The notes below the pieces were generated by a model. That model made no database searches. It saw only the letters and a program-made list of their open reading frames with translations, and was not told the origin of the DNA. This document shows positions 12,794 through 64,000 of a stretch of 64,000 bases of DNA, one piece after another (the stretch's first letter is position 1; the number at the start of each line of letters is the position of its first letter). This DNA comes from Chloroflexota bacterium (GTDB taxonomy: Bacteria; Chloroflexota; UBA4733), in NCBI GenBank assembly GCA_023381555.1, contig JAMCRV010000114.1, positions 2,899 through 66,898 on the forward strand. Reading direction: 5' to 3'. Made by a program: the position numbers and the translations under genes.

Positions 12794-15391
12794 ATGAACC
12801 TGAACAGACTCACAGAAAAGTCAGCAGCAGCATTGGATGCTGCACGCAGACTTGCCGAGGAGCACCGGCACACACAAATTGAACCAGATCACTTACTCGC
12901 AGCGCTTGTTACCCAGGACGACGGGGTGGTGCCCGCTGTCCTTAGCTCCCTTGGCGTCGGTACGAGCGATCTCGCGCAACGCCTCGAGACTAATCTCCAC
13001 TCGTTGCCTCGCACTTCATCGACGGCGCAAGCGTACGTGGCTCCCGAGCTTGCCCGGGTGCTCGACAATGCAGAGCGCGAAGCACAGCAGCTGAAAGATG
13101 ACTTCATCTCTACAGAGCATCTTCTCCTTGCCCTTGTCCGCGATGATGAGCGATCTCGGGCGGGCCTACTGCTTCGCACTCTGGGGGTCACGCGTGAGAA
13201 GGTCCTGTCCGCGTTGCGACAGGTTCGTGGTGGGCAGCGCGTGCAGACTCAGAACCCTGAGACGACCTACCAGGCTCTGCAGCGCTACGGTCGGGACCTC
13301 ACGGTCTTAGCGCGAGAGGGCAAGCTCGATCCGGTTATTGGTCGAGACGAAGAGGTGCGACGAGTCATCCAGGTGCTCTCGCGCCGGACTAAAAACAACC
13401 CTGTCCTCATTGGTGAGCCCGGAGTAGGCAAGACCGCCATTGTGGAGGGACTGGCTCAGCGGATCGCACGCGGAGATGTGCCCGAAGGGCTCAAAGACCA
13501 CCGCGTTGTCGCTCTGGATCTCGGTGCGCTCGTTGCCGGAGCGAAGTTCCGCGGAGAGTTCGAAGAGCGGCTCAAGGCCGTTCTCAAAGAAGTGACAGAG
13601 AGTCGGGGCGAGGTCATCCTCTTCATCGACGAGCTGCACACCGTCGTTGGTGCGGGAGCGGCTGAGGGCGCGATGGATGCCAGCAACATGCTGAAGCCGA
13701 TGCTGGCCCGTGGTGAGCTTCACGCGATCGGAGCAACGACGCTCGATGAGTATCGAAAGCACATCGAAAAGGATGCTGCGCTCGAGCGCCGTTTCCAGCC
13801 AGTACTTGTCGGCGAGCCCTCTGTCGAAGACACGATCTCGATTCTGCGCGGTCTGCGCGAGCGCTATGAGCAGCACCACAAGGTGCGAATCCGCGACGCA
13901 GCGCTTGTGGCGGCAGCAGTCTTGAGCAATCGCTACATCTCTGACCGCTTCCTGCCGGATAAAGCGATTGACCTAGTGGATGAGGCAGCATCGCGCTTGC
14001 GTATGGAAGCAACCAGCAGGCCAGCAGAGCTTGACGAAGTGCTGCGACGGCTTATGCAGCTTGAGATTGAGCGCGAGGGCTTGCGTCGTGAGACGGACGG
14101 AGCGAGTCAACAGCGTCTGCAGAAGCTTGAAGGAGAGCTGGCAACGCTCCGAGAGGAGGCACACGCGCTCGAGACGCGCTGGCAGCATGAGCTCCAGCTG
14201 CTCAACAGGGTTGGTCAGTTGAAGCAACGGTTGGAGTCGATACGGAACGAGATCGAACAGGCGATGAGCCGCGGGGACCCGGAGCGCGCAGCGCGTCTTC
14301 GCTATGGTGATCTACGTGAGCTGGAGCAACAGCTGCAAACGGCTGAGTCTGAGCAGCAGCAACTCGGTTCACGCCTCGTTCGCGAGGAGGTTACCGAAGA
14401 GGACATCGCCGTAGTGGTGAGCAGATGGACTGGCGTCCCCGTGTCGCGGCTCATGCAAGGGGAGCTCGAGAAGCTCGTTCACATGGAAGCGGGCCTGCGT
14501 AAGCGCGTCGTCGGACAAGAAGACGCCCTAGCGGCTGTAGCCAACGCTGTGCGGGCGGCTCGGGCCGGACTTCAGGATCCTAACAAGCCACTCGGCTCGT
14601 TCCTCTTCCTGGGGCCTACGGGAGTAGGAAAGACGGAGACGGCCCGTGCCCTGGCGGAGTTCCTCTTCGATAGCGAGGCAGCAATGGTCCGCATCGACAT
14701 GTCGGAGTACCAGGAAAAACACACTGTATCGCGGCTCATCGGTGCGCCGCCGGGCTACGTCGGCTATGAAGAGGCGGGCCAGTTGACCGAGGCCATCCGG
14801 CGCCGTCCGTACTCTGTGTGCCTCTTCGACGAGGCCGAAAAGGCACACCCGGAGGTGCTCAACGTTCTCCTGCAGCTTCTGGATGATGGGCGTCTCACGG
14901 ACGGACAGGGAAGGACCGTTGATTTCCGGAACACTATCGTCATTATGACGAGTAACCTGGGTAGCCAGTGGATCACGGATCCTCAGCTTAACTGGGACGA
15001 TATCCAGGCGCGTGTCTTCGAAGCTGTGCGGTCCTATTTCCGGCCCGAGCTGCTCAACCGCATCGATGACATCATCATCTTCCACCAGCTTGGCAAAGAG
15101 GAGATTGCCCGCATCATAGACATTCAGCTGGACGCAGTGCGCCAGCGGCTGGCCGATCGTCACATTGAGATCGAGCTGACGCAGGAGGCCCAGCAGCTCT
15201 TGGTAAGCGCAGGATTCGATCCGGTGTATGGCGCCCGACCACTGAAGCGCGTGTTGCAGCGACAAATCGTTCAGCCGCTCGCACTGCGACTGCTGGAGGG
15301 TTCAGTCCATGATGGCGACAGCGTGGTCATCGACGCTGCTGATGGAGCGTTTCAGTTCCGGGCCGAGAGGCGCGTAGCCGTGCCGGCATGA
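12794..15391 (+). CDS. clpB: ATP-dependent chaperone ClpB
   Basis: About 865 aa with two AAA+ modules ([18 protein letters not shown]) and a long middle coiled coil. The N-terminus is [10 protein letters not shown]. Confidence 0.95.
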
Positions 15392-15414
15392 TGTAGCGTT
15401 TCGAATACGGAAGC

Positions 15415-15457
15415 GCGAGCGGAGGGGTGCACTGCCATAGGGCATCCCTCCGCTCGC
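15415..15457 (+). terminator. hairpin terminator after clpB
   Basis: GCGAGCGGAGGG...CCCTCCGCTCGC is a perfect 12-bp stem 24 nt after the clpB stop, followed by TTATGATT. Confidence 0.55.
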
Positions 15458-15527
15458 TTATGATTAAGGTGATCAAGCGTACTCGCCACGTCGAGGTACA
15501 GAGAAAGTACGGAGGAGGAATGCGATC

Positions 15528-17009
15528 GTGACATCAGCAGTGAATACCAGCGTCGTGGAGTGTCGCAATCTCATCAACGGTGAATGGCGCACGAGCTCGA
15601 GTGGAAAGACGCTCTCCCGGGAGAACCCAGCTGATACCCGTGAGATCGTGTGTCGGTATCAGGATTCAACGGCCGATGATGTGGCGGCTGCTTGTGAAGC
15701 GGCAGCAAAGGCGTCTGAATCGTGGGCTGCACTGGCGGGTCCCGCACGTGGGGAATATCTTCGCAAGGCCGCAGATGTGCTCGAGTCACGGCTCGAGGAT
15801 GTCGCGGTGACGATGACCAGAGAGATGGGCAAGACGATCGGCGAGGCGCGCGGTGAGACGCGCCGTGGTGTGACCATTCTGCGGTACTATGCCCAAGAAG
15901 GTCTGCGTGAGCTTGGATTGACTATTCCGTCTTCCGATGCTCGCACCCTCATGTACACCACTCGCGTGCCGCTCGGATCTGTTGCGCTCATCACCCCGTG
16001 GAACTTCCCTATCGCGATTCCACTGTGGAAGATGGCTCCGGCACTCATTTATGGCAACACCGTCGTGCTCAAGCCCGCAAGCTTGGCAACTGCCACTGCG
16101 ACCAAAATCGTCGAGTGCCTTGTTGAATCTGGAATTCCGGCGGGCGTAGTCAACCTCGTGGGCGGAGCGGGCAGTCGTGTTGGCAAGGCGCTCATGGCCC
16201 ATCCTAAGATCCACGCCTTGAGCTTCACAGGCTCAAACGAAGTGGGGCGGGGCCTGGCAGTCCAGGCATTGGAGCGGGGAGTGAAGTACCAGCTCGAGAT
16301 GGGCGGAAAGAATCCCGTCATCGTTTGTGATGATGCCGATCTCGATCAGGCCGTGGAGCTGACCGTCTCCGGGGCAATGCGTACTACTGGTCAAAAGTGT
16401 ACGGCCACGAGCCGGGCCATTATCATGGAGCCGCTCTACAAGGAGTTTTCCGAGCGTGTGGTGGCGCGCTGTCGCTCGCTCAAGATTGGGTCGGGCTTGG
16501 ATGAGAGTGTCTATCTGGGTCCCGCCGTCTCGAAGGACCAGATGGAGACGGACCTCAGGTATATCAGTCTCGGGAAGCAAGAAGGTGCACGCGTTTTGTG
16601 CGGCGGAGGCCAGCCTCGGAGTCCCGGTCTGGAATACGGCTACTTCGTTGAGCCCACGGTCTTCGACGAGGTTTTTCCGGGCATGCGTATTGCTCAGGAG
16701 GAGATCTTCGGCCCCGTGCTCGGTCTCATCAAGGCAAGGTCCTTTGAAGAAGCGGTGGAATTCGCGAACGCCATTCAGTACGGTCTCAGTGCCTCAGTGT
16801 TTACACGGGACATCAATCGCGCACTAGCTTTCGCTACAGGGATCGAGGCCGGAATGGTCCGCGTAAATGGCGAGACCGCCGGTGTCGAGCCCCAGGCTCC
16901 GTTTGGTGGTATGAAGGCATCGAGCTCGCATTCACGAGAGCAGGGCCGGGCCGCCCTGGAGTTCTTCACGTCGGTGAAGACCGTAGCCATTTCTCCGACT
17001 CCCCGCTGA
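15528..17009 (+). CDS. NAD(P)-dependent aldehyde dehydrogenase
   Basis: 493-aa ORF with ALDH motifs FTGSNEVGR, EMGGKNP, GQKCTATSR. GTG start preceded by GGAGGAGGA. Confidence 0.9.
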   Translation: MTSAVNTSVVECRNLINGEWRTSSSGKTLSRENPADTREIVCRYQDSTADDVAAACEAAAKASESWAALAGPARGEYLRKAADVLESRLEDVAVTMTREMGKTIGEARGETRRGVTILRYYAQEGLRELGLTIPSSDARTLMYTTRVPLGSVALITPWNFPIAIPLWKMAPALIYGNTVVLKPASLATATATKIVECLVESGIPAGVVNLVGGAGSRVGKALMAHPKIHALSFTGSNEVGRGLAVQALERGVKYQLEMGGKNPVIVCDDADLDQAVELTVSGAMRTTGQKCTATSRAIIMEPLYKEFSERVVARCRSLKIGSGLDESVYLGPAVSKDQMETDLRYISLGKQEGARVLCGGGQPRSPGLEYGYFVEPTVFDEVFPGMRIAQEEIFGPVLGLIKARSFEEAVEFANAIQYGLSASVFTRDINRALAFATGIEAGMVRVNGETAGVEPQAPFGGMKASSSHSREQGRAALEFFTSVKTVAISPTPR

Positions 17010-53680: not shown

Positions 53681-54840
53681 CAGGCTTGCCGGATACCCTC
53701 CGGGTTGCACTAGTCCACGATTATCTCAATCAGATGGGCGGGGCCGAGCAGGTTCTGGAGGTATTCCATACGCTCTTCCCCTCCGCCCCGATTTTCGTGA
53801 GCGTGTTTGACCGCAAAGTCATGCCCCCTGCGTTTCGCGATATGGACATTCGCACGAGCTTCATGCAGCGCATTTCTCCTCGCACGAGTGTTGCGTATAA
53901 GCTCTTGCCGCTATTCCCGCTCGCTTTCGAGCGGTTCGATCTTCGCGAGTACGATCTCGTCTTGAGCAGCACCACTACCTTTGCGAAAGGGGTCTTGACG
54001 AGGCCACACACGTGTCACGTGTGCTATTGCAACACCCCGTTTCGCTACCTCTGGATGTATCAAGAATATGTCGAGAATCAGCGCGTCAGCCGCCCCGTGG
54101 AGGCGCTGCTCTCGGCTCTTGCAACGCCGCTACGTGTGTGGGACTTTGCCGCTGCCCAAAGGGTGGACTACTTTCTCGCAGGCTCAAGAAATGCCGCACG
54201 GCGCATCAAGAAGTTCTACCGGCGTGAATCTTCGGTACTCCACTCACCGGTTGACGTCCAGTCGATGCCACTGGGGAGGAATTCTGGGGAGTACTACCTC
54301 TTGGCGGGGCGGCACCAAGCATACAAGCGCATGGACCTCGCTATCGCTGCTTGTAACACCCTGCACTTGCCCCTCATCGTGACGAACGAGGGTCCGGAAA
54401 CGGCCAGATTGAAGGCGCTCGCCGGACCCACGGTTCAGTTCACAGGGCGCTTGACACACTCCGAGCTACGGCAGGTCTTCGCTGGCGCCCGGGCACTGCT
54501 CTGGCCTGGAGAAGAGGACTATGGCATAGCACCAGTGGAGGCGATGGGGGCCGGACGTCCCGTGATTGCGATCAAGCGCGGTGGCGTATGTGAGACTGTC
54601 ATAGCCGGGCAGACCGGTGTGTTCTTCGAGAAGCAGACAGTGGAGAGCTTGGTAGAGGCGTTGCGGAACTTTGAAATGCTGTCATTCGATCCACAGCGGA
54701 TCCGCGCGCACGCCATGCAGTTTGACGAATCTGTCTTCAAGCAGCGTCTCCTAGCGCTCTTGGGTGATCTGTGGGACGCGCACACGGAGCAGCTTCACTC
54801 CGGATCGCTACTCGGAGCGCCGTTGAACTCGCTCGACTGA
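53677..54840 (+). CDS. glycosyltransferase, GT-B group 1 family
   Basis: Contains RVALVHDYLNQMGGAEQ and the C-terminal EEDYGIAPVEAMGAGRPVIA (E-x7-E). GTG 53677 overlaps the upstream stop (GTGA); the track ORF starts at 53476 inside the upstream gene. Confidence 0.85.
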   Translation: MTGLPDTLRVALVHDYLNQMGGAEQVLEVFHTLFPSAPIFVSVFDRKVMPPAFRDMDIRTSFMQRISPRTSVAYKLLPLFPLAFERFDLREYDLVLSSTTTFAKGVLTRPHTCHVCYCNTPFRYLWMYQEYVENQRVSRPVEALLSALATPLRVWDFAAAQRVDYFLAGSRNAARRIKKFYRRESSVLHSPVDVQSMPLGRNSGEYYLLAGRHQAYKRMDLAIAACNTLHLPLIVTNEGPETARLKALAGPTVQFTGRLTHSELRQVFAGARALLWPGEEDYGIAPVEAMGAGRPVIAIKRGGVCETVIAGQTGVFFEKQTVESLVEALRNFEMLSFDPQRIRAHAMQFDESVFKQRLLALLGDLWDAHTEQLHSGSLLGAPLNSLD

Positions 54841-55118
54841 CTTCCGTTGCGTGGAGTCTTCACCTTGGTTTTGACCGTACGTGTGCCACCTTTGTCGCCT
54901 GTCGCCGGCTCGTCATCAACGAGGGAGGAGTGCGCGGAATTCGGTCACTGGCGGACCTGGATCTCACACTGATCCACAGTCACCCGCCTCTTGGTAGTGG
55001 GCCTTTTCTACCGGGGCGCTTGTGCCCACGCTCCAACGCATGAATTCGGCGGGCGTCCATTGCCGTCTCCTATGCCGCTAGTAAAGAGGGCGCGGACGGT
55101 GTGAGCGCCTTGCTGAGT

Positions 55119-55454
55119 CTAGTACCGGTTAGAGCGCATCTTGGCGTAGCACTCGTTACAGTACACCGGCTTGCCCGATGTCGGCTGAAACGGCACGCGT
55201 GCCTCGCGCCCGCACGAGGAACAGGGAACCGTATAGTACTCGCGCTGGCTGTGGCTGCCCGCGTTGTCATACCCAGGCCCGGCAGAACGGTTCTCTCGCG
55301 TACCGGCTGACGACTTGCGCGTTGAGCGGCACTCCGGGCAGCGAGAAGGATCGTGAGAAAGACCATGCGAAGCGTAGAACTGCTGCTCCCCGATAGTGAA
55401 CACAAACGAGCGACCACACTCCCGACACGTCAACGTCTTGTCAGATAGGGCCAT
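55119..55454 (-). CDS. zinc-ribbon protein (two CxxC pairs at each end)
   Basis: 111 aa with CRECG...CPEC and CSSCG...CNEC separated by a basic linker. It is the last gene before the defence island. Confidence 0.6.
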   Translation of the reverse strand: MALSDKTLTCRECGRSFVFTIGEQQFYASHGLSHDPSRCPECRSTRKSSAGTRENRSAGPGYDNAGSHSQREYYTVPCSSCGREARVPFQPTSGKPVYCNECYAKMRSNRY

Positions 55455-55920
55455 TAGAGACGAACCTCCCTGGAAACAGCTACCACCTAAGGTCTGGAGA
55501 CTCGTCTGCTTAGCCCTGGGCGGCTACGTACCGATTGGCCCGGTGTTCACTCGCGGACGGGACTCAACAACCGGCAAGAGTATACCTGAAGGCTCCAGCG
55601 TTTCCTAGATCATAGACCTCATGGTGGAAATCAAGGCATGGTGACGGCTCGATCGCTGGCATCCAAGACCAGAATCACACTCTGCTAGCATCGTGAGGAT
55701 GGGATCTTGCTGGCGTGGGTTGGACAAGGAGAGACGTGCGGTGTAGTGGTTCGCGCGCAGTAGCAGCAGTGCGGACGGCGTGTCTGACGCCGAGGCCTAC
55801 ACAGCGCTGTCTCGTAATCGCGCGTGGAACTGCTCGCCATTGCCAACCGCTCGCCGCCGCCATTGCCATTCCTGATCGCCAGGAGTATTCTGCGGCGAGA
55901 AGAAAGCTTGTGCTGGCAAC

Positions 55921-56631
55921 GTGATTGCGACAGACACCCAGTGGCGCGCCTGCGGCCCGTACTTGGCAGTTAATGCCTCGAAGGCGGGGCTAGTCGATGA
56001 GACGCGCCTCGCCCTGCTGCTCTATCAGCGTCTTGGCGATCTAGACGCAACGAAACGGAAGTTGCTCCAGGACGTCCTGCCCCAGCGCTCTCGCTCCTCG
56101 CGGGAGGGCATCGTGGAACGCATCGTGTCGCGGCTGGCGCGCTGGAACCCGCCGGCCTGGGTCTGCCAGGATCTCATTGCCGCTGCGACCGTGGAGGATG
56201 GCATCGACCTGCGCGCCTTGCTGCTCGTGCACGCCGCCCGGCAAGACAGGCTGCTGTACGAGGTGATCCAATGCCTCGTGGTACCGCGCTGGCGCCGGGG
56301 GGAACAGCAAATCATCCGCGCTGACGTCCAGCACTTCCTCGATGCAGCGGAGTCCGACCATCCTGAAATAGCCCGTTGGAGCCGGCAGACGCGAGAGAAG
56401 CTGGCCAGCAACGTCCTGGCTATCCTGCACGACTATGGCCTCCTGACCGGCAAGGTGACGCGGCGCATCGTCGAGCCGGTGGTGCGTTCAAACGTGGCCG
56501 GGCATTTGGAACGGTTGCTGCTGGAAGAAGGGATCGTGCCAGAGGCCGTCCCCACGCACCCGGACTGGCGGCTGTGGCTTTGGGATGAGCAACGCGTCAA
56601 GAGCTGGCAGATCCGTCGCGATCGGAAGTAA
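55921..56631 (+). CDS. brxA: BrxA-like protein (DUF1819-type)
   Basis: 236 aa and first gene of the cassette. Its size, position and helical pattern (LLLVHAARQDRLLYEVI) are consistent with BrxA. Called mainly from context. Confidence 0.55.
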   Translation: MIATDTQWRACGPYLAVNASKAGLVDETRLALLLYQRLGDLDATKRKLLQDVLPQRSRSSREGIVERIVSRLARWNPPAWVCQDLIAAATVEDGIDLRALLLVHAARQDRLLYEVIQCLVVPRWRRGEQQIIRADVQHFLDAAESDHPEIARWSRQTREKLASNVLAILHDYGLLTGKVTRRIVEPVVRSNVAGHLERLLLEEGIVPEAVPTHPDWRLWLWDEQRVKSWQIRRDRK

Positions 56632-57218
56632 TGGGAATGGATGAGCTAGGCACGCGACTAGAGGCGCTGCTGGTGCGTCTACGCACGGCATATGACGGCA
56701 TCGGCCATAGCTATGGCCGGCCCTACATCTACTTCGTCTACCGGCCGGCGGAGGAACGGGCGCTGCGCAAGCTGGCGGATGAGACATTGCGCAGCGACCA
56801 GACGCTACGCTTTCACCACCTCGATCTGCTGCCGTTGACCATCGCCAGCATCGCCGGCCAGGAGGAGCGCCGGCAGGAGCTGCTGGCCGGTCCGCGCGGC
56901 GGGGCGGTGGCGGGGCAGATCTTGGGACACTGGGTACGGACGTTGGGGCGAGAGATCGACCAGCAGCTCATCGCTATGCAGGATGGCCGGCGGCCGGTCG
57001 TCGTGCTGCGCGGCCTGGCGGCGCTCCATCCGCTCAGTCATCCGACGGCTATGATGGAAGCGCTAGCCGAGCAAGAACCGCGCGATGCCGAGACTGGGCG
57101 GACGGTGCCGCTTGTCGCCCTGGTGCCGGGCGTCCGTCCTCCCCAGACCAGCCGCGAGTATCTGTTTCTGGGGCAGGAGCGGCTGCGCTTCACGTTCTAC
57201 CGAGGAGAGGAGTGGTAA
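56631..57218 (+). CDS. brxB: BrxB-like protein (DUF1788-type)
   Basis: 195 aa. Its start overlaps the brxA stop (TAATG). It has PYIYFVYRPAEE, VVVLRGLAALHP and a C-terminal FTFYRGEEW resembling DUF1788. Confidence 0.6.
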   Translation: MGMDELGTRLEALLVRLRTAYDGIGHSYGRPYIYFVYRPAEERALRKLADETLRSDQTLRFHHLDLLPLTIASIAGQEERRQELLAGPRGGAVAGQILGHWVRTLGREIDQQLIAMQDGRRPVVVLRGLAALHPLSHPTAMMEALAEQEPRDAETGRTVPLVALVPGVRPPQTSREYLFLGQERLRFTFYRGEEW

Positions 57219-60200
57219 TGGCAATCCGCGATCTCTTCGCCACGCGCATTCAGGAGCGCATCGAGCCGGTCGTGAAGATTGCCGACCGTCGCCCCGCCGT
57301 GCTGGCGGGAGAGCTCTCGGCGCTGGTGGTGACGCCCCAATGGGAGCAGTACCTGCGCCGCATCCTCGATGCCTACGTCGACGCTGCCGATCGTGACGAC
57401 GAACAGGCCATCGGCATCTGGATCAGCGGCTTCTTCGGCTCCGGAAAGTCCTTACTGCTCAAAGTGCTGGGTGCACTCCTGGAAGGCGGCGAGCTGGGAG
57501 GGCGCTCCGTCCACGAGATGTTCCTGGAGCGCCTACCGGCGAATAGCCCGGACCGCACCGAGTTGCAGCACCTGCTCACGGCCAGCGCTCATCGGGTGTC
57601 CGCCACCGCCGTAGGCGGCAACCTGCACGCGCTGATCGGTGACACCAGTGACACGCTGGCCCTGATCACCTTCAAGCTGTTTGCCCAGGCGCGAGGCTAC
57701 ACCACGAACTGGGCGCTGGCCTGGGCGGTGGAGTATCAGCTTGACCGGCGCGGCAGCACCGCCGCCTTCCAGCAACACGCTGCCAGCCTGTGCGAGTGCG
57801 ACTGGGAAGACCTCGCCGCCGACGCCGACTTCTATGCCGGCCAGCTCTATCAGGCCGCCGCTGATACGCTGCCAGAGCACTTTGCTGGCGGAGCAGCTGC
57901 CGTGGAACGGGCGGTGGCGGGCGCCACCCGCAACGGCATCGACGCGCGTATGCTAGTGGAGCGGCTGCGGACCTGGTGTGAAGCGCGCGACGCCCATGGA
58001 CGGCGGCATAAAGTGCTACTGCAACTGGACGAGCTGGGCCAGTGGATCGGTGGTGATCCACACAACCGCACCATGCAGGTGGCCGCGCTGGCGGAGGAGG
58101 CGGCCGTGCACGGCGGTGGTCGGGTCTGGATCGGCGTCACTGCTCATGGTGACGTGCAGGAGCTCAGCCAGAACATTCAGCAGGAGTACTATGCCAAGAT
58201 CGTCCAGCGTTTCGGCACGCGCTACAAGCTCAGCAACGAGGAGATGGGCCAGGTCGTCGAGCAGCGCGTGCTCCAGAAGACCCAGCCGGGGCGCCGGGAG
58301 CTGGAGCAGCGGTTCGACGCGCGTAGCGGCGAGCTGACCGACCTCGGCACCCTGGAGCGACCCCAACGGGTCTATGCATCGCCGGACCGGCGGAGCGTAG
58401 CGCTCTTCTATCCCTACTTGCCCTGGACCGTCGCGGTGGTGCCCGACATCGTCAAGAACATCGCTCTGGCTGCGGGACGCGGTGAGGCGCTGAGCGGCGC
58501 CACCCGCACTATGATCGGCGTGGTACAGGGCGGCATCATCGAGACGCCTGGTCTGCTCGACGGCCCGGTCGGACCGCTCTTGAGCCTGGCTGACGTGTAC
58601 GATCAGGTCTCGAGCGACGTGCCCATCGAAACCAAGACCGACCTGAACAGCGTGTTGAAGTCGGTGCCGGAAGCAACGGCGTTCACGGTGCGCGTCGCGC
58701 GGGGCCTGTACCTGCTGGGCAAGGCGGAGTACATCCCACCGACGCTGGAAAATGTGACGCGGGCTCTGGCCGGCGGCCTCGATACTGACCTGGGGGCGCT
58801 GCGCCGGCAGGTGCAGACCGAGCTGGTCCGGCTCATCGACGCGGGCTACGCCAAGCAGGTGGGGGAGGAATACGTCTTCCTCAGCACGCAGCAGCGCGGC
58901 TTCCAGGCTCGCGTGCGCGAGCGGCAGGGCGAACTAGAGAGCCGTAGCTACGAGCTGGTCCAGGCGCTCAAGGAGTTCGAGAGCGATGAGGCTCTGCGCT
59001 TCGACCGGCCGGCCATCGCCGGCGGGCGGGAAATCCCATTGAAATTGGAGATCGACGAGCGCACCGTGCGCAACATCGGCGCCAGCGTGACGTTGCGCGT
59101 CTACAGTCCTTTGCAGCGGGCGCTCGATCCGGCCATCGGCGACGACGTCACACTCAACCAGCGTTCCAACGGCGAGCCGAACAGCATCATTGTGCGCCTG
59201 GGCGAGGCGCCCGACCTGCGCAAGAAACTGGCGCTCACTTTGGCGACGGCCCAGGTCGCCGAGGAGACGCTCAGTGCTACCCCCAACGGTCCGGAGGCGG
59301 AGGTCGCCCGGCAGGCGCGCCAGAACGACCTACCCAGCTTCCGGACGGATGTGCGCCGGCTGCTCGCTCAGGCGGTACGCAACGCTGTCCTCTTTTTCCG
59401 GGGCAGCGGCTACCAGCTCGCCGCGGGTGACAGCCCGGCCGGGGCGGTACGGGCGACGCTGGCCCAGCTCCTGCCCCAGGTCTACCCACGCTTCGCTGAC
59501 GTGCCGCAGCGCATCGCCAATGAAGAGTCAGCGGTGCGCACCGCGCTGGCCGGGGCCGCAAACAGCGACCTCCAGGCGCTCGGCGTCTACAAGGCCGACA
59601 AGAGCATCAATGAAGCCCACGTCCTGCTCACTACCCTGCGCGGAGAGCTGCCGGTAGAAGGACAAGACACGTTGCCGGTGCTCGCGGAGCAGATCCGCAC
59701 CAAGCTGGAAGGACCGCCCTTCGGCTGGGACGGCAACTGCGTCAAGGTGGGGCTGGCGCTGCTGCTGCGCTGTTCCGGCTGCAAGCTGATCGACAACGGG
59801 CAGCCGGTGACCGACCCAACCAACCCGGAAGCGTCCCTCTTGCTCACGCGCGAGCAGCGCTTCAAGAACCTGCGCGTCGTGGCTGTGCGTGGCACCCTCA
59901 CCATGCCGGAGCAGATCCAGATCCGGACGGCGCTGGAGGAAATCTTCCATGAAAAAGCGTCCCTGGTGCCGGCGACGCTCAATGCTAGGCTGGGCACAGG
60001 ATTGGACGCGCTGGTGCGACGGGCACAAGACCTGAGCTCCTGGGCAAATGCGGCCCGCTGCCCCTTGCCGCTGGCCTTCGAGTCTGGACTGAGTCGGGCC
60101 GGCGACCTTGCCAGCGTTACCGCGCCGGCCGTCCGTCTCCAGCGTTTCCTGGGAGAAAGGGAGGCGCTGCGGGACTGGGCGGCGCTGGTGGATGAGTTGG

Positions 60201-60835
60201 AGACTTTCCGGCGGGAGCACGGGGCCGAGTTTGGGGGGATCCGCGACGACGCCAACCGCATGCTCTACCTGGACGTGCCGGTACCCGAGCTGCGCCGCTT
60301 TATCGAAGACTGGCGGACGTTAAGCAACGAGCACAGCGTAACGGAGCCGCCGCGCTGGAACGAATTGGCGGCGGCATATCGGGCAGCCAAAGAGGCACTG
60401 GCCCGTCAGGCCACAACCTGGCGGGAGGAGACAACGACCGAGCTGGCGCAGCTGGAAGCCCAACTGCCAGAGCAAGTCGCCGCCAAGGGAGCGCCGCCCG
60501 CCCAGATGGAGAGCGAGCTGGCTCGCTTACGCGAGGCGCTGGCGCCGGCCCGGCAGCACCTGGAGACTGCCGGCAGCGACATCGGTGCCCTACGGGAAGC
60601 CCGCCACACGCTCGCTGCCGCGCAGTTGGAGTTGCCGCGGCTGTTGCGAGAAATCGAGCTTCGCTACGCTCCGGAGCCGGTGCCGAATACCGATGGGTAC
60701 GACGGCGGGGACAACGGAGCGCTCCGCATCCCGCCGGAGGAAGACCTGGAGACAGCGCTGTCCGGCTTGCGGCAGCGTCTCCAGAATCTCCAGGAGCAAG
60801 GGAAGACAGTCATCGTCACGGTCAAGGTGGAATAG
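57218..60835 (+). CDS. brxC: BrxC/PglY-like P-loop ATPase
   Basis: About 1205 aa with Walker A GFFGSGKS (57428..57451), Walker B-like VLLQLDELGQW, and a C-terminal coiled coil. ATG 57218 overlaps the brxB stop (TAATG); the track start is GTG 57212. Confidence 0.75.
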   Translation: MAIRDLFATRIQERIEPVVKIADRRPAVLAGELSALVVTPQWEQYLRRILDAYVDAADRDDEQAIGIWISGFFGSGKSLLLKVLGALLEGGELGGRSVHEMFLERLPANSPDRTELQHLLTASAHRVSATAVGGNLHALIGDTSDTLALITFKLFAQARGYTTNWALAWAVEYQLDRRGSTAAFQQHAASLCECDWEDLAADADFYAGQLYQAAADTLPEHFAGGAAAVERAVAGATRNGIDARMLVERLRTWCEARDAHGRRHKVLLQLDELGQWIGGDPHNRTMQVAALAEEAAVHGGGRVWIGVTAHGDVQELSQNIQQEYYAKIVQRFGTRYKLSNEEMGQVVEQRVLQKTQPGRRELEQRFDARSGELTDLGTLERPQRVYASPDRRSVALFYPYLPWTVAVVPDIVKNIALAAGRGEALSGATRTMIGVVQGGIIETPGLLDGPVGPLLSLADVYDQVSSDVPIETKTDLNSVLKSVPEATAFTVRVARGLYLLGKAEYIPPTLENVTRALAGGLDTDLGALRRQVQTELVRLIDAGYAKQVGEEYVFLSTQQRGFQARVRERQGELESRSYELVQALKEFESDEALRFDRPAIAGGREIPLKLEIDERTVRNIGASVTLRVYSPLQRALDPAIGDDVTLNQRSNGEPNSIIVRLGEAPDLRKKLALTLATAQVAEETLSATPNGPEAEVARQARQNDLPSFRTDVRRLLAQAVRNAVLFFRGSGYQLAAGDSPAGAVRATLAQLLPQVYPRFADVPQRIANEESAVRTALAGAANSDLQALGVYKADKSINEAHVLLTTLRGELPVEGQDTLPVLAEQIRTKLEGPPFGWDGNCVKVGLALLLRCSGCKLIDNGQPVTDPTNPEASLLLTREQRFKNLRVVAVRGTLTMPEQIQIRTALEEIFHEKASLVPATLNARLGTGLDALVRRAQDLSSWANAARCPLPLAFESGLSRAGDLASVTAPAVRLQRFLGEREALRDWAALVDELETFRREHGAEFGGIRDDANRMLYLDVPVPELRRFIEDWRTLSNEHSVTEPPRWNELAAAYRAAKEALARQATTWREETTTELAQLEAQLPEQVAAKGAPPAQMESELARLREALAPARQHLETAGSDIGALREARHTLAAAQLELPRLLREIELRYAPEPVPNTDGYDGGDNGALRIPPEEDLETALSGLRQRLQNLQEQGKTVIVTVKVE

Positions 60836-60851
60836 CGGGCAGAGGGCAATA

Positions 60852-62909
60852 ATGCAGAAACGCCAGAAGGATCTCCTCCGTGCCGTCGTCCTGGATCTAC
60901 GTCACACGCTCGCCGGCAACACGACCAACGGTAAACAGGTGCGCGGCGACCTGGATCGCGAGCTGGCGCGGCTGGGCGTGGCGCCTGACGGCACGCTGAC
61001 ACCCTTCGACATCGTCGCCAACCCGGCGACCCACGAGCGGCGAGCGCGCCAGGTAGCGGAAGCAGAACTGGCCGGCCTGCCGGGGGCTGAACGCCCGGTG
61101 GCGCGAACAGAACTGGTGGAACACGCCGCCTACTCCTGGATCAACCGGCTGCTGGCGCTGCGGGCGATGGAGGCGCGTGGACTGATTGGGGAGACGCTGC
61201 GTCCCAACCCGGACTACGACGGCCAGCCGGAAGCGCTCTACATCCTCGCCACCACCGACCCGGCGCGCGCCGCCGCGGCCGATCGAGGCTGGTGGAAGGT
61301 GATCGAGGACGTCTGCGCCGGCCAGGCCGCCAGCCTGCCGGGCCTCTTCGGCGCCGGTGACCCCAACACCGCCCTGCGCCCCAGTGTCGCCGCCCTCTTG
61401 CACATCGTTGCCGCCCTTGGCGGCAGCCAGCTACCGGGCTTCACGCTGGAGGACTGCGATGCCGCCTTCTCTGACCCTGACGCCACCGGCTGGGCCTACC
61501 AGTTCTATCAAGAAGAAGCGAAGGCGCAGGTCTACGCCACGCTCAAGGCGGGCGGCAAGGTGACCACGCGGGCTGAGATTGCCGCCGCCACCCAGTTGTT
61601 CACCGAACCCTACATGGTGCAGTGGCTGCTCCAGAACAGTCTCGGCCGCAGCTACCACGAGGCGTATCCAGCAAGCAAGCTGCCGGAGACCTGGCCCTAC
61701 TACATCCGGCCGGAAAGGCTCGACCAGCCGGCCGTCCCGAGCCTCGCCGGTCTCACCGTCATGGACCCGTGCATGGGCAGCGGCCACTTCCTGCGCGAAG
61801 CGTTTGACATGCTCGCGGCAATGTACCGCGAGCAGCAGCCAGTATTGACTGCCGCGGAGATTGCCGGCCGCATCCTGGGTGTGCACCTGCACGGCATCGA
61901 CATCGATCCGCGCGCTGCCCAACTGGCCGCGCTCACCCTTTACCTGCGCGCTTGGGAGCTCGTGCGTGACGAGCGTAAGAGCCGGCGCGTAGCCGGTCTT
62001 GCGCCCTACCGGCCGCCGGTGATGAATCTGGCCACGACGCCCAGCCGCCTGGACACAGGCGTGCTGGACCGCCATCTGCGCCGCCATCCCGAAGATCTGG
62101 TCTTCAAAGACCTGCTGGAAGAGATCTTCGCCTCCCTGGAGCAAGCCGGCATCCTCGGCAGTCTGCTGAAGCCGGAGGAACACCTTGACGCCGGCATCAA
62201 CAAGCTGCGCCGCACGCATACGCAACGCATGGACAGCGACCCCACGGCAATGCAGTTGCGCGCCACCGTCACCCGCCTCATTCAGGATGACCCGGCAGAC
62301 GCCAAGCGTCTACTCTTGGAGCGGGTGGCGGCGATCTTCAACGCCGAGGCTGCGAACACGGGTGATGTCGGGGATCAGCTCTTCGGACGTGAGGCGGAGC
62401 AGGGCGTGCGGCTGGTGCAGTTGCTCGACCGGCACTACGCGGTAGTGGTGACGAATCCGCCGTACATGGGCAGCGCAAACATGGACCGCCCGCTGCGCAG
62501 CTACGTGGAGCGACAGTACCCAGCGGGCAAGCGCGACCTCTATGCCACCTTCATCCAGCGCTGCCTGCAACTCGCTGCAGCTCAGGGCAAGGTGGCGATG
62601 GTGACGCAGCAGTCCTGGATGTTCCTGCGCTCGTTCGCCGACCTGCGCAAGGGCATCCTGGAGCAGCAGACGGTCGACTGTCTCGCGCACCTTGGCCCAC
62701 GTGCCTTCGAAGAAATCTCCGGCGAGGTGGTCAACATCGCACTCTTCGTGGTCACGCAGGCGATACCCAGGCAAGATCACCGGCTGTGGGCGGCGCGGCT
62801 GATCGGACCGAAGAGCCCGGCGGAGAAGGATAAGCTGTTACGGGAGGTGGTGGCGGGTGGGACGCAGACCGAGTCCCGATCACAGCAGGAGATGGAGGCA
62901 GCGCGATGA
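60852..62909 (+). CDS. pglX: PglX-like N6-adenine DNA methyltransferase, short form (685 aa)
   Basis: Contains AYSWINRLLALRAMEARG, QLFTEPYMVQWLLQNSLG, motif I DPCMGSGHF (from 61764) and motif IV TNPPYMG (NPPY at 62454..62465). It ends 147 aa after NPPY. The track ORF start at 60585 lies inside brxC. Confidence 0.8.
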   Translation: MQKRQKDLLRAVVLDLRHTLAGNTTNGKQVRGDLDRELARLGVAPDGTLTPFDIVANPATHERRARQVAEAELAGLPGAERPVARTELVEHAAYSWINRLLALRAMEARGLIGETLRPNPDYDGQPEALYILATTDPARAAAADRGWWKVIEDVCAGQAASLPGLFGAGDPNTALRPSVAALLHIVAALGGSQLPGFTLEDCDAAFSDPDATGWAYQFYQEEAKAQVYATLKAGGKVTTRAEIAAATQLFTEPYMVQWLLQNSLGRSYHEAYPASKLPETWPYYIRPERLDQPAVPSLAGLTVMDPCMGSGHFLREAFDMLAAMYREQQPVLTAAEIAGRILGVHLHGIDIDPRAAQLAALTLYLRAWELVRDERKSRRVAGLAPYRPPVMNLATTPSRLDTGVLDRHLRRHPEDLVFKDLLEEIFASLEQAGILGSLLKPEEHLDAGINKLRRTHTQRMDSDPTAMQLRATVTRLIQDDPADAKRLLLERVAAIFNAEAANTGDVGDQLFGREAEQGVRLVQLLDRHYAVVVTNPPYMGSANMDRPLRSYVERQYPAGKRDLYATFIQRCLQLAAAQGKVAMVTQQSWMFLRSFADLRKGILEQQTVDCLAHLGPRAFEEISGEVVNIALFVVTQAIPRQDHRLWAARLIGPKSPAEKDKLLREVVAGGTQTESRSQQEMEAAR

Positions 62910-63895
62910 GCCCTGTTCCCTATGAGTGGCGACTGCACGCCGAGAGCGACTTGTGGACCGGATCGGTGAAGATAGAGCAGAGGGACAGTCAGCCGAGCGA
63001 GCGAATTGTCCCCGACAAGCTTGTTACCACTGGCCTACTCGGCTCCATTCGCTGGTGGTTTGAGGTGCTGGTTCGCGGCCTTGGCGGCGCCGCATGTGAT
63101 CCATCTGGCGGAGGCGGCAATGATCGTTGCCCAGACCAGGGTGGTAAGCACTGCGTTGTCTGCGAGCTGTTTGGTTGTACGGGCTGGGCGCGCAAGTTCC
63201 GGTTCGAGGTGCGGGATCCGAGCGGTGCGGTCGTGGGCGACCAGATCAAGAGGGACGCCGTCTTCACCCTCCGCTTCACCCCGCTCCGCCCTATCCTGGC
63301 GGAGGAGTGGGCTTTGCTCGATCTGACGCTCCGGCTCATCGCCAACTACGGCGCCATCGGCGGCAAGACGGTGCTCAAGCCATCCGACGAAGCGAATCGC
63401 ATGCGCCTACAGCATCATCTGGACTACGGCATCATCTCAGTTGACGGGCGTCCAACTGTCCCACACGCGTCAAGATTGGAACTCGAAAGCTATGTGCGTG
63501 ACCCCCGTTGGCGGAAACCGCCCCAGACAGACTTCGAATGGGCATCGCTCACCACCTTCTGGTGCGTGAATGACAGCTACCTCGCCAGGCAAGATCCCAG
63601 CCAGAGCACCTTCAATAGGGTCCTGGGTCGAACGGAACCGAAGAATCAGGGCCAGCAGCTGGCGACCAACGATAGGGCAAGCCGGTGGCTCGCCGGACGG
63701 CAGCAAGAGAGCAAGAAGGTCTTCAGCTTCAAGAATCCGCCCCGCACATTCGGATTTGTCAACCCCGGAGTCATCACCTTCGATCAGACGAAGCAGCGCC
63801 TGACGCGGGCATGGGTGAACTTCCGTCCGGATGACTTCGTGACCGGTGACGTTATTCTCGCGCGTCTCACGACACAAGATGGACAGATCCCGTGA
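62906..63895 (+). CDS. RAMP-superfamily protein, Cmr1-like (type III CRISPR-associated family)
   Basis: 329 aa with GSIRWWFEVLVRGL (63041..), CVVCELFGCTGW (63152..63187), a glycine loop NYGAIGGKT (63344..), and C-terminal RTFGFVNPG. Its ATG overlaps the pglX stop (ATGA). Assigned by motif resemblance only. Confidence 0.55.
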   Translation: MSPVPYEWRLHAESDLWTGSVKIEQRDSQPSERIVPDKLVTTGLLGSIRWWFEVLVRGLGGAACDPSGGGGNDRCPDQGGKHCVVCELFGCTGWARKFRFEVRDPSGAVVGDQIKRDAVFTLRFTPLRPILAEEWALLDLTLRLIANYGAIGGKTVLKPSDEANRMRLQHHLDYGIISVDGRPTVPHASRLELESYVRDPRWRKPPQTDFEWASLTTFWCVNDSYLARQDPSQSTFNRVLGRTEPKNQGQQLATNDRASRWLAGRQQESKKVFSFKNPPRTFGFVNPGVITFDQTKQRLTRAWVNFRPDDFVTGDVILARLTTQDGQIP

Positions 63896-64000
63896 CATTC
63901 GAGCTGTACACCGATCTGGCCACCCAAACCTCTTGCCCTACCGACGGCCCGCTGCCCGCGGGGCTGGCATCCGGATTCGTGGACGGATGCACCTTTTGGT
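63892..64000 (+). CDS. 5' end of an unidentified gene running off the window
   Basis: The GTG at 63892 overlaps the RAMP stop (GTGA). There are 36 open GC3-rich codons (VTFELYTDLATQTSCPTDGPLPAGLASGFVDGCTFW) and no recognisable motif. Confidence 0.35.
   Translation, partial: MTFELYTDLATQTSCPTDGPLPAGLASGFVDGCTFW

What the first reader, a model, noticed from the sequence alone, without database searches (positions are those of the whole stretch)
60852..63895. PglX-like methyltransferase lacks its C-terminal half and is start/stop-coupled to a RAMP gene
Seen in the sequence: the pglX-like gene (ATG 60852) has a complete N-terminal region and a complete gamma-type MTase core. Motif I is DPCMGSGHF at about residue 305 and motif IV NPPY is at residues 535-538. 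The gene stops at 62907-62909, 147 aa after NPPY. The next gene's ATG (62906) overlaps that stop as ATGA, and that gene carries RAMP hallmarks rather than PglZ hallmarks. Established: BREX PglX proteins are normally roughly 1100-1250 aa, with a large post-NPPY region implicated in target-site recognition. The canonical type 1 order continues with pglZ and brxL. Inference: either a type III CRISPR-like module recombined into pglX and left a decayed BREX, or this is a functional hybrid. In the hybrid case a RAMP module would substitute for the protein specificity or effector part; RNA-guided targeting of a BREX methylase is the boldest and most speculative reading. The tidy ATGA coupling argues weakly against a recent random insertion.
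Basis: partly seen in the sequence, partly recalled or inferred. Interest (0 to 1): 0.85.

Follow-up and report, generated by a model that had tools for sequence, protein, structure and literature searches.

The report
Split BREX methylase hosting a CRISPR module
The "half" methyltransferase is the N-terminal piece of a BREX methylase that many bacteria encode as two genes, and the RAMP gene after it starts an ordinary type III-C CRISPR effector cassette sitting as cargo in that gap, not a new RNA-guided hybrid.

Summary
A 685-aa PglX with intact motif I and NPPY stops at 62907-62909, and its stop overlaps (ATGA) the start of a RAMP gene. The interpretation mostly fails.

1. The RAMP is Cmr1. 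An identical contig that runs past the window continues with cmr6 and a type III-C cas10. Relatives in other phyla carry the same cmr1-cmr6-cas10-cmr4-cmr5-cmr3 cassette, mostly away from BREX, and one has a CRISPR array.
2. PglX forms of about 680-710 aa are common. About 14 of 58 informative related loci stop at the same point. This is the hinge between the methylase domain and the DNA-recognition domain.
3. The missing half exists in relatives as a separate 650-850-aa gene further down the operon, followed by pglZ and brxL.
4. The gap holds different cargo in different genomes, including SIR2-HerA, toxin-antitoxin pairs, a Ppl-like gene, AAA_21-RloB and a Tn3 transposon. The first cargo gene is often start/stop-coupled in the same way.
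5. The same MAG and the same sequencing run carry PglX-C, a toxin-antitoxin pair, PglZ and BrxL on another contig.

Best reading: an intact type 1 BREX with a split PglX and a nested CRISPR effector. Physical linkage across the unassembled gap is inferred. Interest is modest.

The parts
55863..55891 (+). Sigma-70-like promoter candidate just upstream of brxA. It is a possible operon start.
   Evidence: This is the only promoter-like site in 54800-64000 (TTGCCA-17-TATTCT, 9 of 12 matches). The count does not exceed the shuffle expectation (1 found vs 0.8 expected), so the evidence is weak.
55921..56631 (+). brxA
   Evidence: Pfam BrxA E 1e-24, above the cut-off. PADLOC BrxA E 2e-23.
56631..57218 (+). 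brxB (weak match, supported by its position)
   Evidence: PADLOC BrxB E 4e-4. The L019 counterpart at the same position is 92% identical.
57212..60835 (+). brxC (P-loop ATPase)
   Evidence: NCBIfam BREX_BrxC E 3e-149, 499 bits vs a 400-bit cut-off, covering profile positions 2-1172 of 1173.
60852..62909 (+). pglX-N. It encodes the N-terminal helical bundle plus the gamma-class N6-adenine methyltransferase domain of a split PglX, and ends at the inter-domain hinge.
   Evidence: The AlphaFold2 model has pLDDT 80 and pTM 0.86. Its best fold matches are PglX/BrxX structures 8q56, 9ewz and 8c45, covering about 40% of those chains. All residues that are invariant across 19 short forms are present.
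62906..63895 (+). cmr1 (RAMP), the first gene of a type III-C CRISPR-Cas effector cassette. Its start overlaps the pglX-N stop.
   Evidence: Pfam RAMPs E 1.4e-14. TIGR01894 Cmr1 E 1.5e-10. It is 49-59% identical to the Cmr1 of III-C cassettes L007-L011. NCBI names it Cmr1 (MCL4509266.1).
63892..64000 (+). cmr6 5' end, cut by the window end. Its start overlaps the cmr1 stop.
   Evidence: These 36 codons are the start of the 307-aa L001 protein that matches PADLOC Cmr6 at E 1.7e-64.

Best explanation
The locus is a type 1 BREX operon in which the methyltransferase PglX is encoded as two genes.

**PglX-N.** Window 60852-62909 encodes the complete N-terminal helical bundle and the SAM-dependent N6-adenine methyltransferase domain. 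It stops at the hinge that joins the two domains in single-chain PglX.

**PglX-C.** The DNA-recognition half (target recognition domain, spacer helices and C-terminal region) is a separate protein encoded further downstream, ahead of pglZ and brxL. The two halves most likely reassemble non-covalently, as the HsdM and HsdS subunits of type I restriction-modification enzymes do. This step is inferred.

**The gap.** The space between the two half-genes tolerates insertions and repeatedly holds accessory cargo. In this genome the cargo is an ordinary type III-C CRISPR-Cas effector cassette: cmr1, cmr6 and cas10 are seen, and cmr4, cmr5 and cmr3 are expected from relatives. The cassette lies on the same strand, is start/stop-coupled to pglX-N, and is therefore probably co-transcribed with BREX.

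**How the cassette works (inferred).** It acts on its own as a crRNA-guided, RNA-targeting complex, using crRNAs from arrays elsewhere in the genome. Its Cas10 lacks the GGDD cyclase motif.

**Shown:** gene identities, the split point, the recurrence of the split and its variable cargo, and the presence of PglX-C, PglZ and BrxL in the same MAG.

**Inferred:** that those genes lie directly downstream of the cassette, that the two PglX halves work together, and that the cassette is co-transcribed and functionally independent.
For: **1. Identity of the downstream genes.** L001 is 100% identical to window 55687-64000. It continues with Cmr6 (PADLOC E 1.7e-64) and a type III-C Cas10 (PDLC01314, E 1.2e-72).

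**2. The cassette is a standard unit.**
- Seven genome loci from the taxa named in their record titles (Deltaproteobacteria, Syntrophobacteraceae, Synergistales, Omnitrophota, Syntrophorhabdus and Lentisphaerae) encode a III-C Cas10 52-58% identical to this one. cmr1 and cmr6 precede it in the same order wherever the contig reaches.
- L011 adds cmr4, cmr5 and cmr3.
- L007 has a 16-repeat CRISPR array next to the cassette.

**3. The split is at a domain boundary.**
- PglX-N aligns to P0007 residues 1-679.
- Stand-alone proteins of 733 and 798 aa in L003 and L006 align to P0007 from residues 682-690 onwards (E 3e-113 and 6e-116).
- Window residue 635 aligns to E. coli BrxX residue 608.
- The Salmonella PglX hinge is at residues 654-659, and its C-terminal domain resembles type I specificity subunits (PMC11341690).

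**4. The split recurs.**
- Many homologues are 680-710 aa.
- Most of the 120 listed hits to the C-terminal half of P0007 (260 hits in all) are 650-850-aa proteins without a Pfam methyltransferase domain, and those examined in context are stand-alone PglX-C genes.
- Among the 80 metagenome loci, 44 are fused, about 14 stop cleanly at 678-701 aa, 3 end elsewhere or look degenerate, and 19 run off their contig.
- Split and fused forms are interleaved on a neighbour-joining tree. The window's nearest full-length neighbour, L019 (75% identity), is fused.

**5. The cargo varies.**
- SIR2-HerA plus an MNT nucleotidyltransferase.
- An MNT-HEPN pair.
- PIN and small genes.
- A Tn3 transposon, and HEPN plus ATPases.
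- A Ppl-like gene and a pAgo-associated-like gene.
- AAA_21-RloB, and a DUF433-DUF5615 pair.

**6. Overlapping stop/start junctions are generic at this site**.

**7. The rest of BREX is in the same MAG.**
- L099 comes from the same run, SRR10244963. It carries the 3' part of PglX-C (72% identical to L019 PglX residues 947-1445), a BrnT-like/CopG pair, PglZ (80% identical to L019 PglZ) and the start of BrxL.
- The PglZ accession MCL4508023.1 lies in the same block as PglX-N MCL4509265.1.
- GC is 67% in both BREX parts, against 60-64% in the cassette.
Against: - The physical link from cas10 to PglX-C is not assembled in any sequence I could reach. L001 ends inside cas10 and L099 starts inside PglX-C, with no overlap.
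- L099 could therefore belong to a second BREX locus.
- No experiment shows that separate PglX halves reconstitute activity. In Salmonella the C-terminal domain alone could not be expressed (PMC11341690).
- No CRISPR array lies in the 64-kb window, so the source of guide RNA is unknown.
- Three of the five III-C loci of this clade with readable flanks (the window, L009 next to a type 3-like BREX, L011 next to type I hsdM/hsdS) abut methylation-based defence. This leaves some room for a non-random association.
Confidence: 0.77

Rival explanations
1. Decayed BREX. Insertion of the CRISPR cassette truncated pglX and inactivated the system. The PglX-C/PglZ/BrxL contig belongs to a different, intact BREX locus in the same genome or in a mis-binned relative.
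For: - The linkage between L001 and L099 is not demonstrated.
- L033 shows that a Tn3 transposon can occupy the same site.
- The closest relative by identity (P0005, 86%) carries a 486-aa truncated PglX.
Against: - The break lies exactly at the conserved hinge where at least 14 other loci end cleanly. The tail motif (K659, L663) is conserved across 19 short forms.
- brxA, brxB, brxC and pglX-N are intact, and the sequence is identical in two runs.
- No second close PglX-N appeared in the protein search: after the 100% hit, the next full-length hits are 64% identical or less.
- Identities to L019 are coherent across both contigs: BrxC 84%, PglX-N 75%, PglX-C 72%, PglZ 80%.
- GC content matches between the two contigs.
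Confidence: 0.12
2. Functional hybrid. The Cmr complex replaces or supplements the protein specificity module, giving RNA-guided targeting or triggering of the BREX methylase or effector.
For: - The cassette is start/stop-coupled to pglX-N and lies on the same strand.
- Its Cas10 lacks GGDD and has HM where HD is expected, so the usual Cas10 outputs may be missing.
- A second cassette of this clade sits directly after the pglZ of a type 3-like BREX in L009.
Against: - A protein specificity half (PglX-C) is present in the same MAG.
- The same gap holds unrelated cargo with the same kind of coupling.
- The same cassette occurs among housekeeping genes in L007 and L010. None of the 80 PglX-related metagenome loci carries Cmr or Cas10 genes.
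- The Cmr proteins show no extra domain or fusion pointing to BREX.
Confidence: 0.05

Closest known systems
Type 1 BREX (brxA-brxB-brxC-pglX-pglZ-brxL; E. coli HS and Salmonella D23580 systems)
   Same: - The gene order brxA, brxB, brxC, pglX is the same.
- PglX-N matches the BREX-1 PglX profile and the solved PglX/BrxX structures.
- PglZ and BrxL are present in the same MAG.
   Different: - PglX is encoded as two genes split at the hinge.
- The fused relatives of this clade are longer (about 1390-1590 aa) than the 1205-1225-aa model proteins.
- Cargo sits inside the split.
Type I restriction-modification HsdM + HsdS (and type IIB enzymes with a separate specificity subunit)
   Same: A methyltransferase polypeptide and a separate DNA-recognition polypeptide. 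The PglX C-terminal domain structurally resembles type I specificity subunits with spacer helices (PMC11341690).
   Different: - There is no HsdR.
- PglX-C carries a further conserved C-terminal region.
- Assembly of the two halves has not been tested here.
BREX islands with embedded accessory defence genes (BrxU in pEFER, PARIS in Salmonella D23580)
   Same: Extra defence genes lie between core BREX genes on the same strand. About 7000 of about 9000 genomes have genes between BREX components (PMC11341690).
   Different: - Here the cargo sits within a split core gene rather than between whole genes.
- The cargo is a CRISPR-Cas effector. That survey lists only one cas category ('cas_type_other'), at 0.11% of the 1902 defence genes found between pglX and pglZ.
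Type III-C CRISPR-Cas (Cmr-like effector with a divergent Cas10 and an apparently inactive cyclase)
   Same: - The order cmr1-cmr6-cas10 is the same, with cmr4-cmr5-cmr3 in relatives.
- PADLOC III-C Cas10 and Cmr5 models match.
- GGDD is replaced by FSFPGER.
- An inactive cyclase in subtype III-C is described in PMC6013697.
   Different: - No CRISPR array or adaptation genes are seen near it in the window.
- It is embedded in a BREX operon.

Membership tests
Type 1 BREX | brxA, brxB and brxC are present, in that order | tested here: met
   Pfam BrxA E 1e-24, PADLOC BrxB E 4e-4 (weak), NCBIfam BrxC E 3e-149.
Type 1 BREX | PglX adenine methyltransferase with SAM-binding motif I and the NPPY motif | tested here: met
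   DPCMGSGHF at residue 305 and NPPY at 535-538. NF033452 E 2e-121, but the score is below its full-length cut-off because only half the profile is covered.
Type 1 BREX | pglZ and brxL in the same locus | tested here: inconclusive
   Neither gene is in the window. PglZ (809 aa) and the start of BrxL lie on L099, from the same run and the same MAG accession block. Contiguity with the window is not shown.
Canonical single-chain PglX | Methyltransferase domain and target-recognition/C-terminal domain in one polypeptide of about 1200 aa or more | tested here: not met
   The stop is at residue 685, at the hinge. In relatives the C-terminal half is a separate gene.
RAMP superfamily / Cmr1 | Profile match above the curated cut-off | tested here: met
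   Pfam PF03787, 55.5 bits vs 22.1. TIGR01894, 41.5 bits vs 28.65.
Type III-C CRISPR-Cas effector | Cas10 of the III-C kind with a degenerate cyclase motif, preceded by cmr1 and cmr6 | tested here: met
   On L001, which is identical to the window where they overlap: PADLOC Cas10c E 1.2e-72 and Cmr6 E 1.7e-64. There is no GGDD, and FSFPGER is invariant in five homologues.
Type III-C CRISPR-Cas effector | cmr4, cmr5 and cmr3 complete the complex | not testable with these tools
   The sequence beyond L001 is unavailable. These genes are present in the relative L011, and ORFs of matching sizes follow cas10 in L009 and L010.
Type III-C CRISPR-Cas effector | A CRISPR array supplies the guides | tested here: not met
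   No array is found in the 64-kb window. The relative L007 has a 16-repeat array next to its cassette. The rest of the MAG was not searchable.

The most novel reading that the evidence does not exclude
The type III-C cassette is not neutral cargo but is functionally tied to BREX. It is co-transcribed and start/stop-coupled with the methylase. Its Cas10 lacks the cyclase motif and has an atypical HD motif. Another member of the same cassette clade sits right after the pglZ of a type 3-like BREX. One reading is that RNA-guided sensing by the Cmr complex is read out through, or coordinated with, BREX components rather than through Cas10's own activities.
Probability: 0.06. Interest if true: 0.85.

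Novelty: new variant of a known kind. Interest (0 to 1): 0.35.

Why it matters
- **Separable halves.** The data suggest that the BREX methylase can be split at its hinge into a catalytic protein and a specificity protein, and that this has happened repeatedly. This supports the view of PglX as a fused HsdM/HsdS-like enzyme. It also offers a ready-made design for swapping specificity modules.
- **Annotation.** The gap is a recurrent landing site for other defence genes. Pipelines should treat 680-710-aa PglX proteins and the domain-less 650-850-aa proteins downstream as two halves of one component, not as a truncated gene plus a hypothetical protein.
- **Rarity.** A whole CRISPR-Cas effector nested in, and probably co-transcribed with, a BREX operon is rare. 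One survey lists a single cas category at 0.11% of the defence genes found between pglX and pglZ. It is a good test case for co-regulation of layered defences.
- **Limits.** The finding does not support RNA-guided methylation.

Tried and rejected
- **Reaching the sequence beyond 64000.**
  - Exact-protein look-ups returned only two Logan contigs, and the longer one ends inside cas10.
  - The MAG is not among the GTDB representative genomes scanned.
  - L001 and L099 do not overlap.
- **BREX genes elsewhere in the window.** tblastn with PglX-C, PglZ and BrxL found nothing.
- **CRISPR arrays in the window.** Tandem Repeats Finder, direct-repeat search and Rfam found nothing.
- **Conserved short-PglX plus Cmr adjacency.** None of the 80 PglX-related metagenome loci has a Cmr or Cas10 hit. 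Among the seven III-C genome loci, only L009 lies next to BREX, and that is a type 3-like system.
- **Nesting in L009.** I looked for a brxA after its cassette. None was found, so there it is adjacency only.
- **Fingerprinting by contig length.** I looked for a PglX-C hit on a 71123-bp contig. None was among the 120 hits listed.
- **Literature.** I found no paper describing split PglX. The 2026 BREX survey (PMC12839542) contains none of the words split, truncated, RAMP or Cas10. PADLOC does hold half-length PglX models that fit each half.
- **Alternative start.** I rejected the GTG 60585 start (774 aa) because homologues align from M1 at 60852.
Full report
**Observation**

The window encodes, on the + strand:
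- brxA (55921-56631)
- brxB (56631-57218)
- brxC (57212-60835)
- a 685-aa PglX-like protein (60852-62909)
- a 329-aa RAMP protein (62906-63895), whose ATG overlaps the PglX stop as ATGA
- the first 36 codons of another gene (63892-64000)

Profile searches confirm BrxA, BrxC and PglX, and give weak support for BrxB. PglX matches the BREX-1 profile at E 2e-121, but only over positions 62-623 of 1210. The RAMP passes the Pfam RAMPs and NCBIfam Cmr1 cut-offs. Two independent run assemblies are 100% identical to the window across the junction, so it is not a chimera.

**What follows the RAMP gene**

Contig L001 is identical to window 55687-64000 and extends 3.3 kb further. It encodes Cmr6 (PADLOC E 1.7e-64) and then a Cas10 of the III-C kind (E 1.2e-72), cut by the contig end. 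The RAMP is therefore Cmr1, the first gene of a type III-C effector operon.

A scan of representative genomes with the Cas10 fragment found seven loci.
- Their record titles name Deltaproteobacteria, Syntrophobacteraceae, Synergistales, Omnitrophota, Syntrophorhabdus and Lentisphaerae.
- Their Cas10 is 52-58% identical to this one, and cmr1 and cmr6 precede it wherever the contig reaches.
- L011 adds cmr4, cmr5 and cmr3.
- L007 has a 16-repeat CRISPR array beside the cassette.

The Cas10 family is highly conserved (74% mean column identity). It has FSFPGER where GGDD is expected, and GWLHMxGKA where an HD motif is expected. This fits the published description of III-C as having an apparently inactive cyclase (PMC6013697).

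The neighbours of the cassette differ between genomes:
- housekeeping genes in L007 and L010
- type I hsdM/hsdS in L011
- a type 3-like BREX (PglXI, BrxH helicase, PglZ) in L009

**What the short PglX is**

The protein search returned many homologues of 680-710 aa, down to about 40% identity, alongside long forms. Gene contexts give the explanation.
- In L003, L006 and L018, brxA-brxB-brxC is followed by a 689-710-aa PglX, then a few unrelated genes, then a 733-798-aa protein with no Pfam domain. L003 and L006 then reach pglZ, and L006 also reaches brxL.
- The L003 and L006 domain-less proteins are the C-terminal half of PglX. They align to residues 682-1196 of a long relative at 40% identity (E 3e-113 to 6e-116). 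The window protein aligns to residues 1-679 of the same relative at 61%.
- PADLOC PglX models match the L006 and L018 proteins over the C-terminal half (about positions 625-1091). PADLOC also holds half-length PglX models that fit either half.
- A search with a C-terminal half returned 260 hits. Most of the 120 listed are 650-850-aa proteins without a Pfam methyltransferase domain, from sources named as Nitrospira, Acidobacteria, Rokubacteria, Chloroploca, Omnitrophota and Ktedonobacteraceae.

**Where the split lies**

- Window residue 635 aligns to E. coli BrxX residue 608. The end at residue 685 therefore falls at about residue 655-660 of the solved proteins.
- In Salmonella PglX the two domains are joined by a hinge at residues 654-659. 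The C-terminal domain is a target recognition domain plus spacer helices, resembling type I specificity subunits (PMC11341690).
- An AlphaFold2 model of the window protein (pLDDT 80, pTM 0.86) best matches PglX/BrxX structures. It covers about 40% of each chain.
- Nineteen short forms share conserved residues to the very end (K659, L663), so they all stop at the same place.

**How common the split is, and what sits in it**

| State of PglX in the 80 related metagenome loci | Loci |
|---|---|
| Single gene of about 1390-1590 aa | 44 |
| Clean stop at 678-701 aa | about 14 |
| Ends elsewhere or looks degenerate | 3 |
| Runs off the contig | 19 |

On a neighbour-joining tree, split and fused forms are interleaved. 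The window's nearest full-length neighbour (L019, 75% identity) is fused. The split, or a re-fusion, has therefore occurred several times at the same point.

The genes after PglX-N differ from locus to locus:
- SIR2-HerA plus an MNT nucleotidyltransferase
- an MNT-HEPN pair
- PIN and small genes
- a Tn3 transposon with passenger genes
- HEPN plus two ATPases
- a Ppl-like gene and a pAgo-associated-like gene
- AAA_21-RloB
- a DUF433-DUF5615 pair
- nothing at all in L093, where pglX-C follows directly

In at least ten of these loci the next gene's start overlaps the PglX-N stop (ATGA, GTGA, TTGA or TAATG). The tidy coupling seen in the window is therefore a property of the site, not of the RAMP gene.

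**Where the rest of BREX is in this organism**

The window holds no PglX-C, PglZ or BrxL. A search with the PglZ of the closest relative found an 80% identical PglZ named "MAG: Chloroflexi bacterium". Its accession, MCL4508023.1, lies in the same block as PglX-N (MCL4509265.1) and Cmr1 (MCL4509266.1), but it sits on a 49,996-bp contig.

Its Logan copy, L099, comes from the same run as L001. It encodes:
- the last 527 aa of PglX-C (72% identical to L019 residues 947-1445)
- a BrnT-like/CopG pair
- PglZ
- the start of BrxL

GC is 67% in both BREX pieces and 60-64% in the Cmr part. The piece between cas10 and pglX-C is not assembled, so the order "cassette, then pglX-C" is inferred.

**Interpretation**

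The best-supported reading (confidence about 0.77) is an intact type 1 BREX operon with a split PglX, carrying a self-contained III-C effector cassette as cargo in the split.
- The catalytic and specificity halves of PglX would associate as separate subunits, as in type I enzymes. This is inferred.
- The Cmr complex would act independently, with guides from arrays elsewhere. This is also inferred.
- A decayed BREX (0.12) is not excluded until linkage is shown.
- An RNA-guided hybrid (0.05) is unlikely, for three reasons: a protein specificity half is present, the cargo at this site is interchangeable, and the cassette occurs away from BREX in other genomes.

**Relation to what is known**

Genes embedded between BREX core genes are well documented. 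One survey found them in about 7000 of about 9000 genomes. BrxU and PARIS were the commonest identified systems, and the only cas category listed ('cas_type_other') made up 0.11% of 1902 defence genes (PMC11341690).

I found no paper describing a PglX split at the hinge or cargo inside the split. A 2026 BREX survey does not use the words split, truncated, RAMP or Cas10. Database models nevertheless already reflect half-length forms.

I therefore rate this as a new variant of a known kind, of modest interest.

Noticed in passing
L009:48-15262: A Synergistales MAG has a type 3-like BREX (PglXI, BrxH helicase, PglZ) ending about 700 nt before the cmr1 of the same III-C cassette clade, on the same strand. 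No brxA was found after the cassette, and housekeeping genes follow.
   Followed up: partly
L007:15548-16693: A CRISPR array of 16 copies of a 37-nt repeat (GTTGCAGACCGTTCCCCGATGAGGAGGGGACTGAAAG) lies just downstream of the III-C cassette closest to the window's. Rfam found no known repeat family there.
   Followed up: partly
L001:9122-11263 and alignment A2: The III-C Cas10 family has an invariant GWLHMxGKA near its N-terminus (HM where HD-domain proteins have HD) and FSFPGER in place of GGDD. Both usual Cas10 activities may therefore be altered.
   Followed up: no
L014-L017 (P0005): The relative most similar to the window's PglX-N (86% identity) is only 486 aa. The four contigs fetched all end 34-170 nt after its stop, which suggests a repeat or a variable region that breaks assemblies there.
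   Followed up: no
L097:10001-18418: Two complete PglX-like genes lie in tandem, each with an N and a C half.
   Followed up: no
P0313, P0316, P0318, P0320, P0321, P0327, P0331-P0335 and others: Many close PglZ homologues of 1150-1177 aa carry a Ser/Thr protein kinase domain fused to PglZ. Those named by their source are from Chloroflexota.
   Followed up: no
L018:1-4047: A pglZ-brxL pair lies directly upstream of brxA on the same strand. This suggests two BREX loci in tandem or a wrapped circular contig.
   Followed up: no
L006:2300-6343: This BrxC is 1347 aa and carries an HNH_2 nuclease domain.
   Followed up: no
L019:6455-10001 and 14341-16244; L014:8606-9707; L100:8702-9982; L101:9502-9991: Cargo also sits at other BREX junctions in this clade. 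Between brxC and pglX these loci carry Nuc_deoxyrib_tr-like genes, a PDDEXK_4 gene or a DUF4160/DUF2442 pair. L019 also has cargo between pglX and pglZ.
   Followed up: no
window:51987-52418: The mechanical 143-aa ORF matches ribosomal protein L35 only over residues 81-139, so the real start is probably downstream. Nearby genes are housekeeping: a YfhO-like membrane protein, a SpoU methylase and a glycosyltransferase. The BREX locus therefore begins abruptly at about 55.9 kb.
   Followed up: no
window:5061-5190: Two adjacent 55-nt direct repeats, 76% identical and spaced 75 nt apart. This is the only short-range repeat in the window.
   Followed up: no
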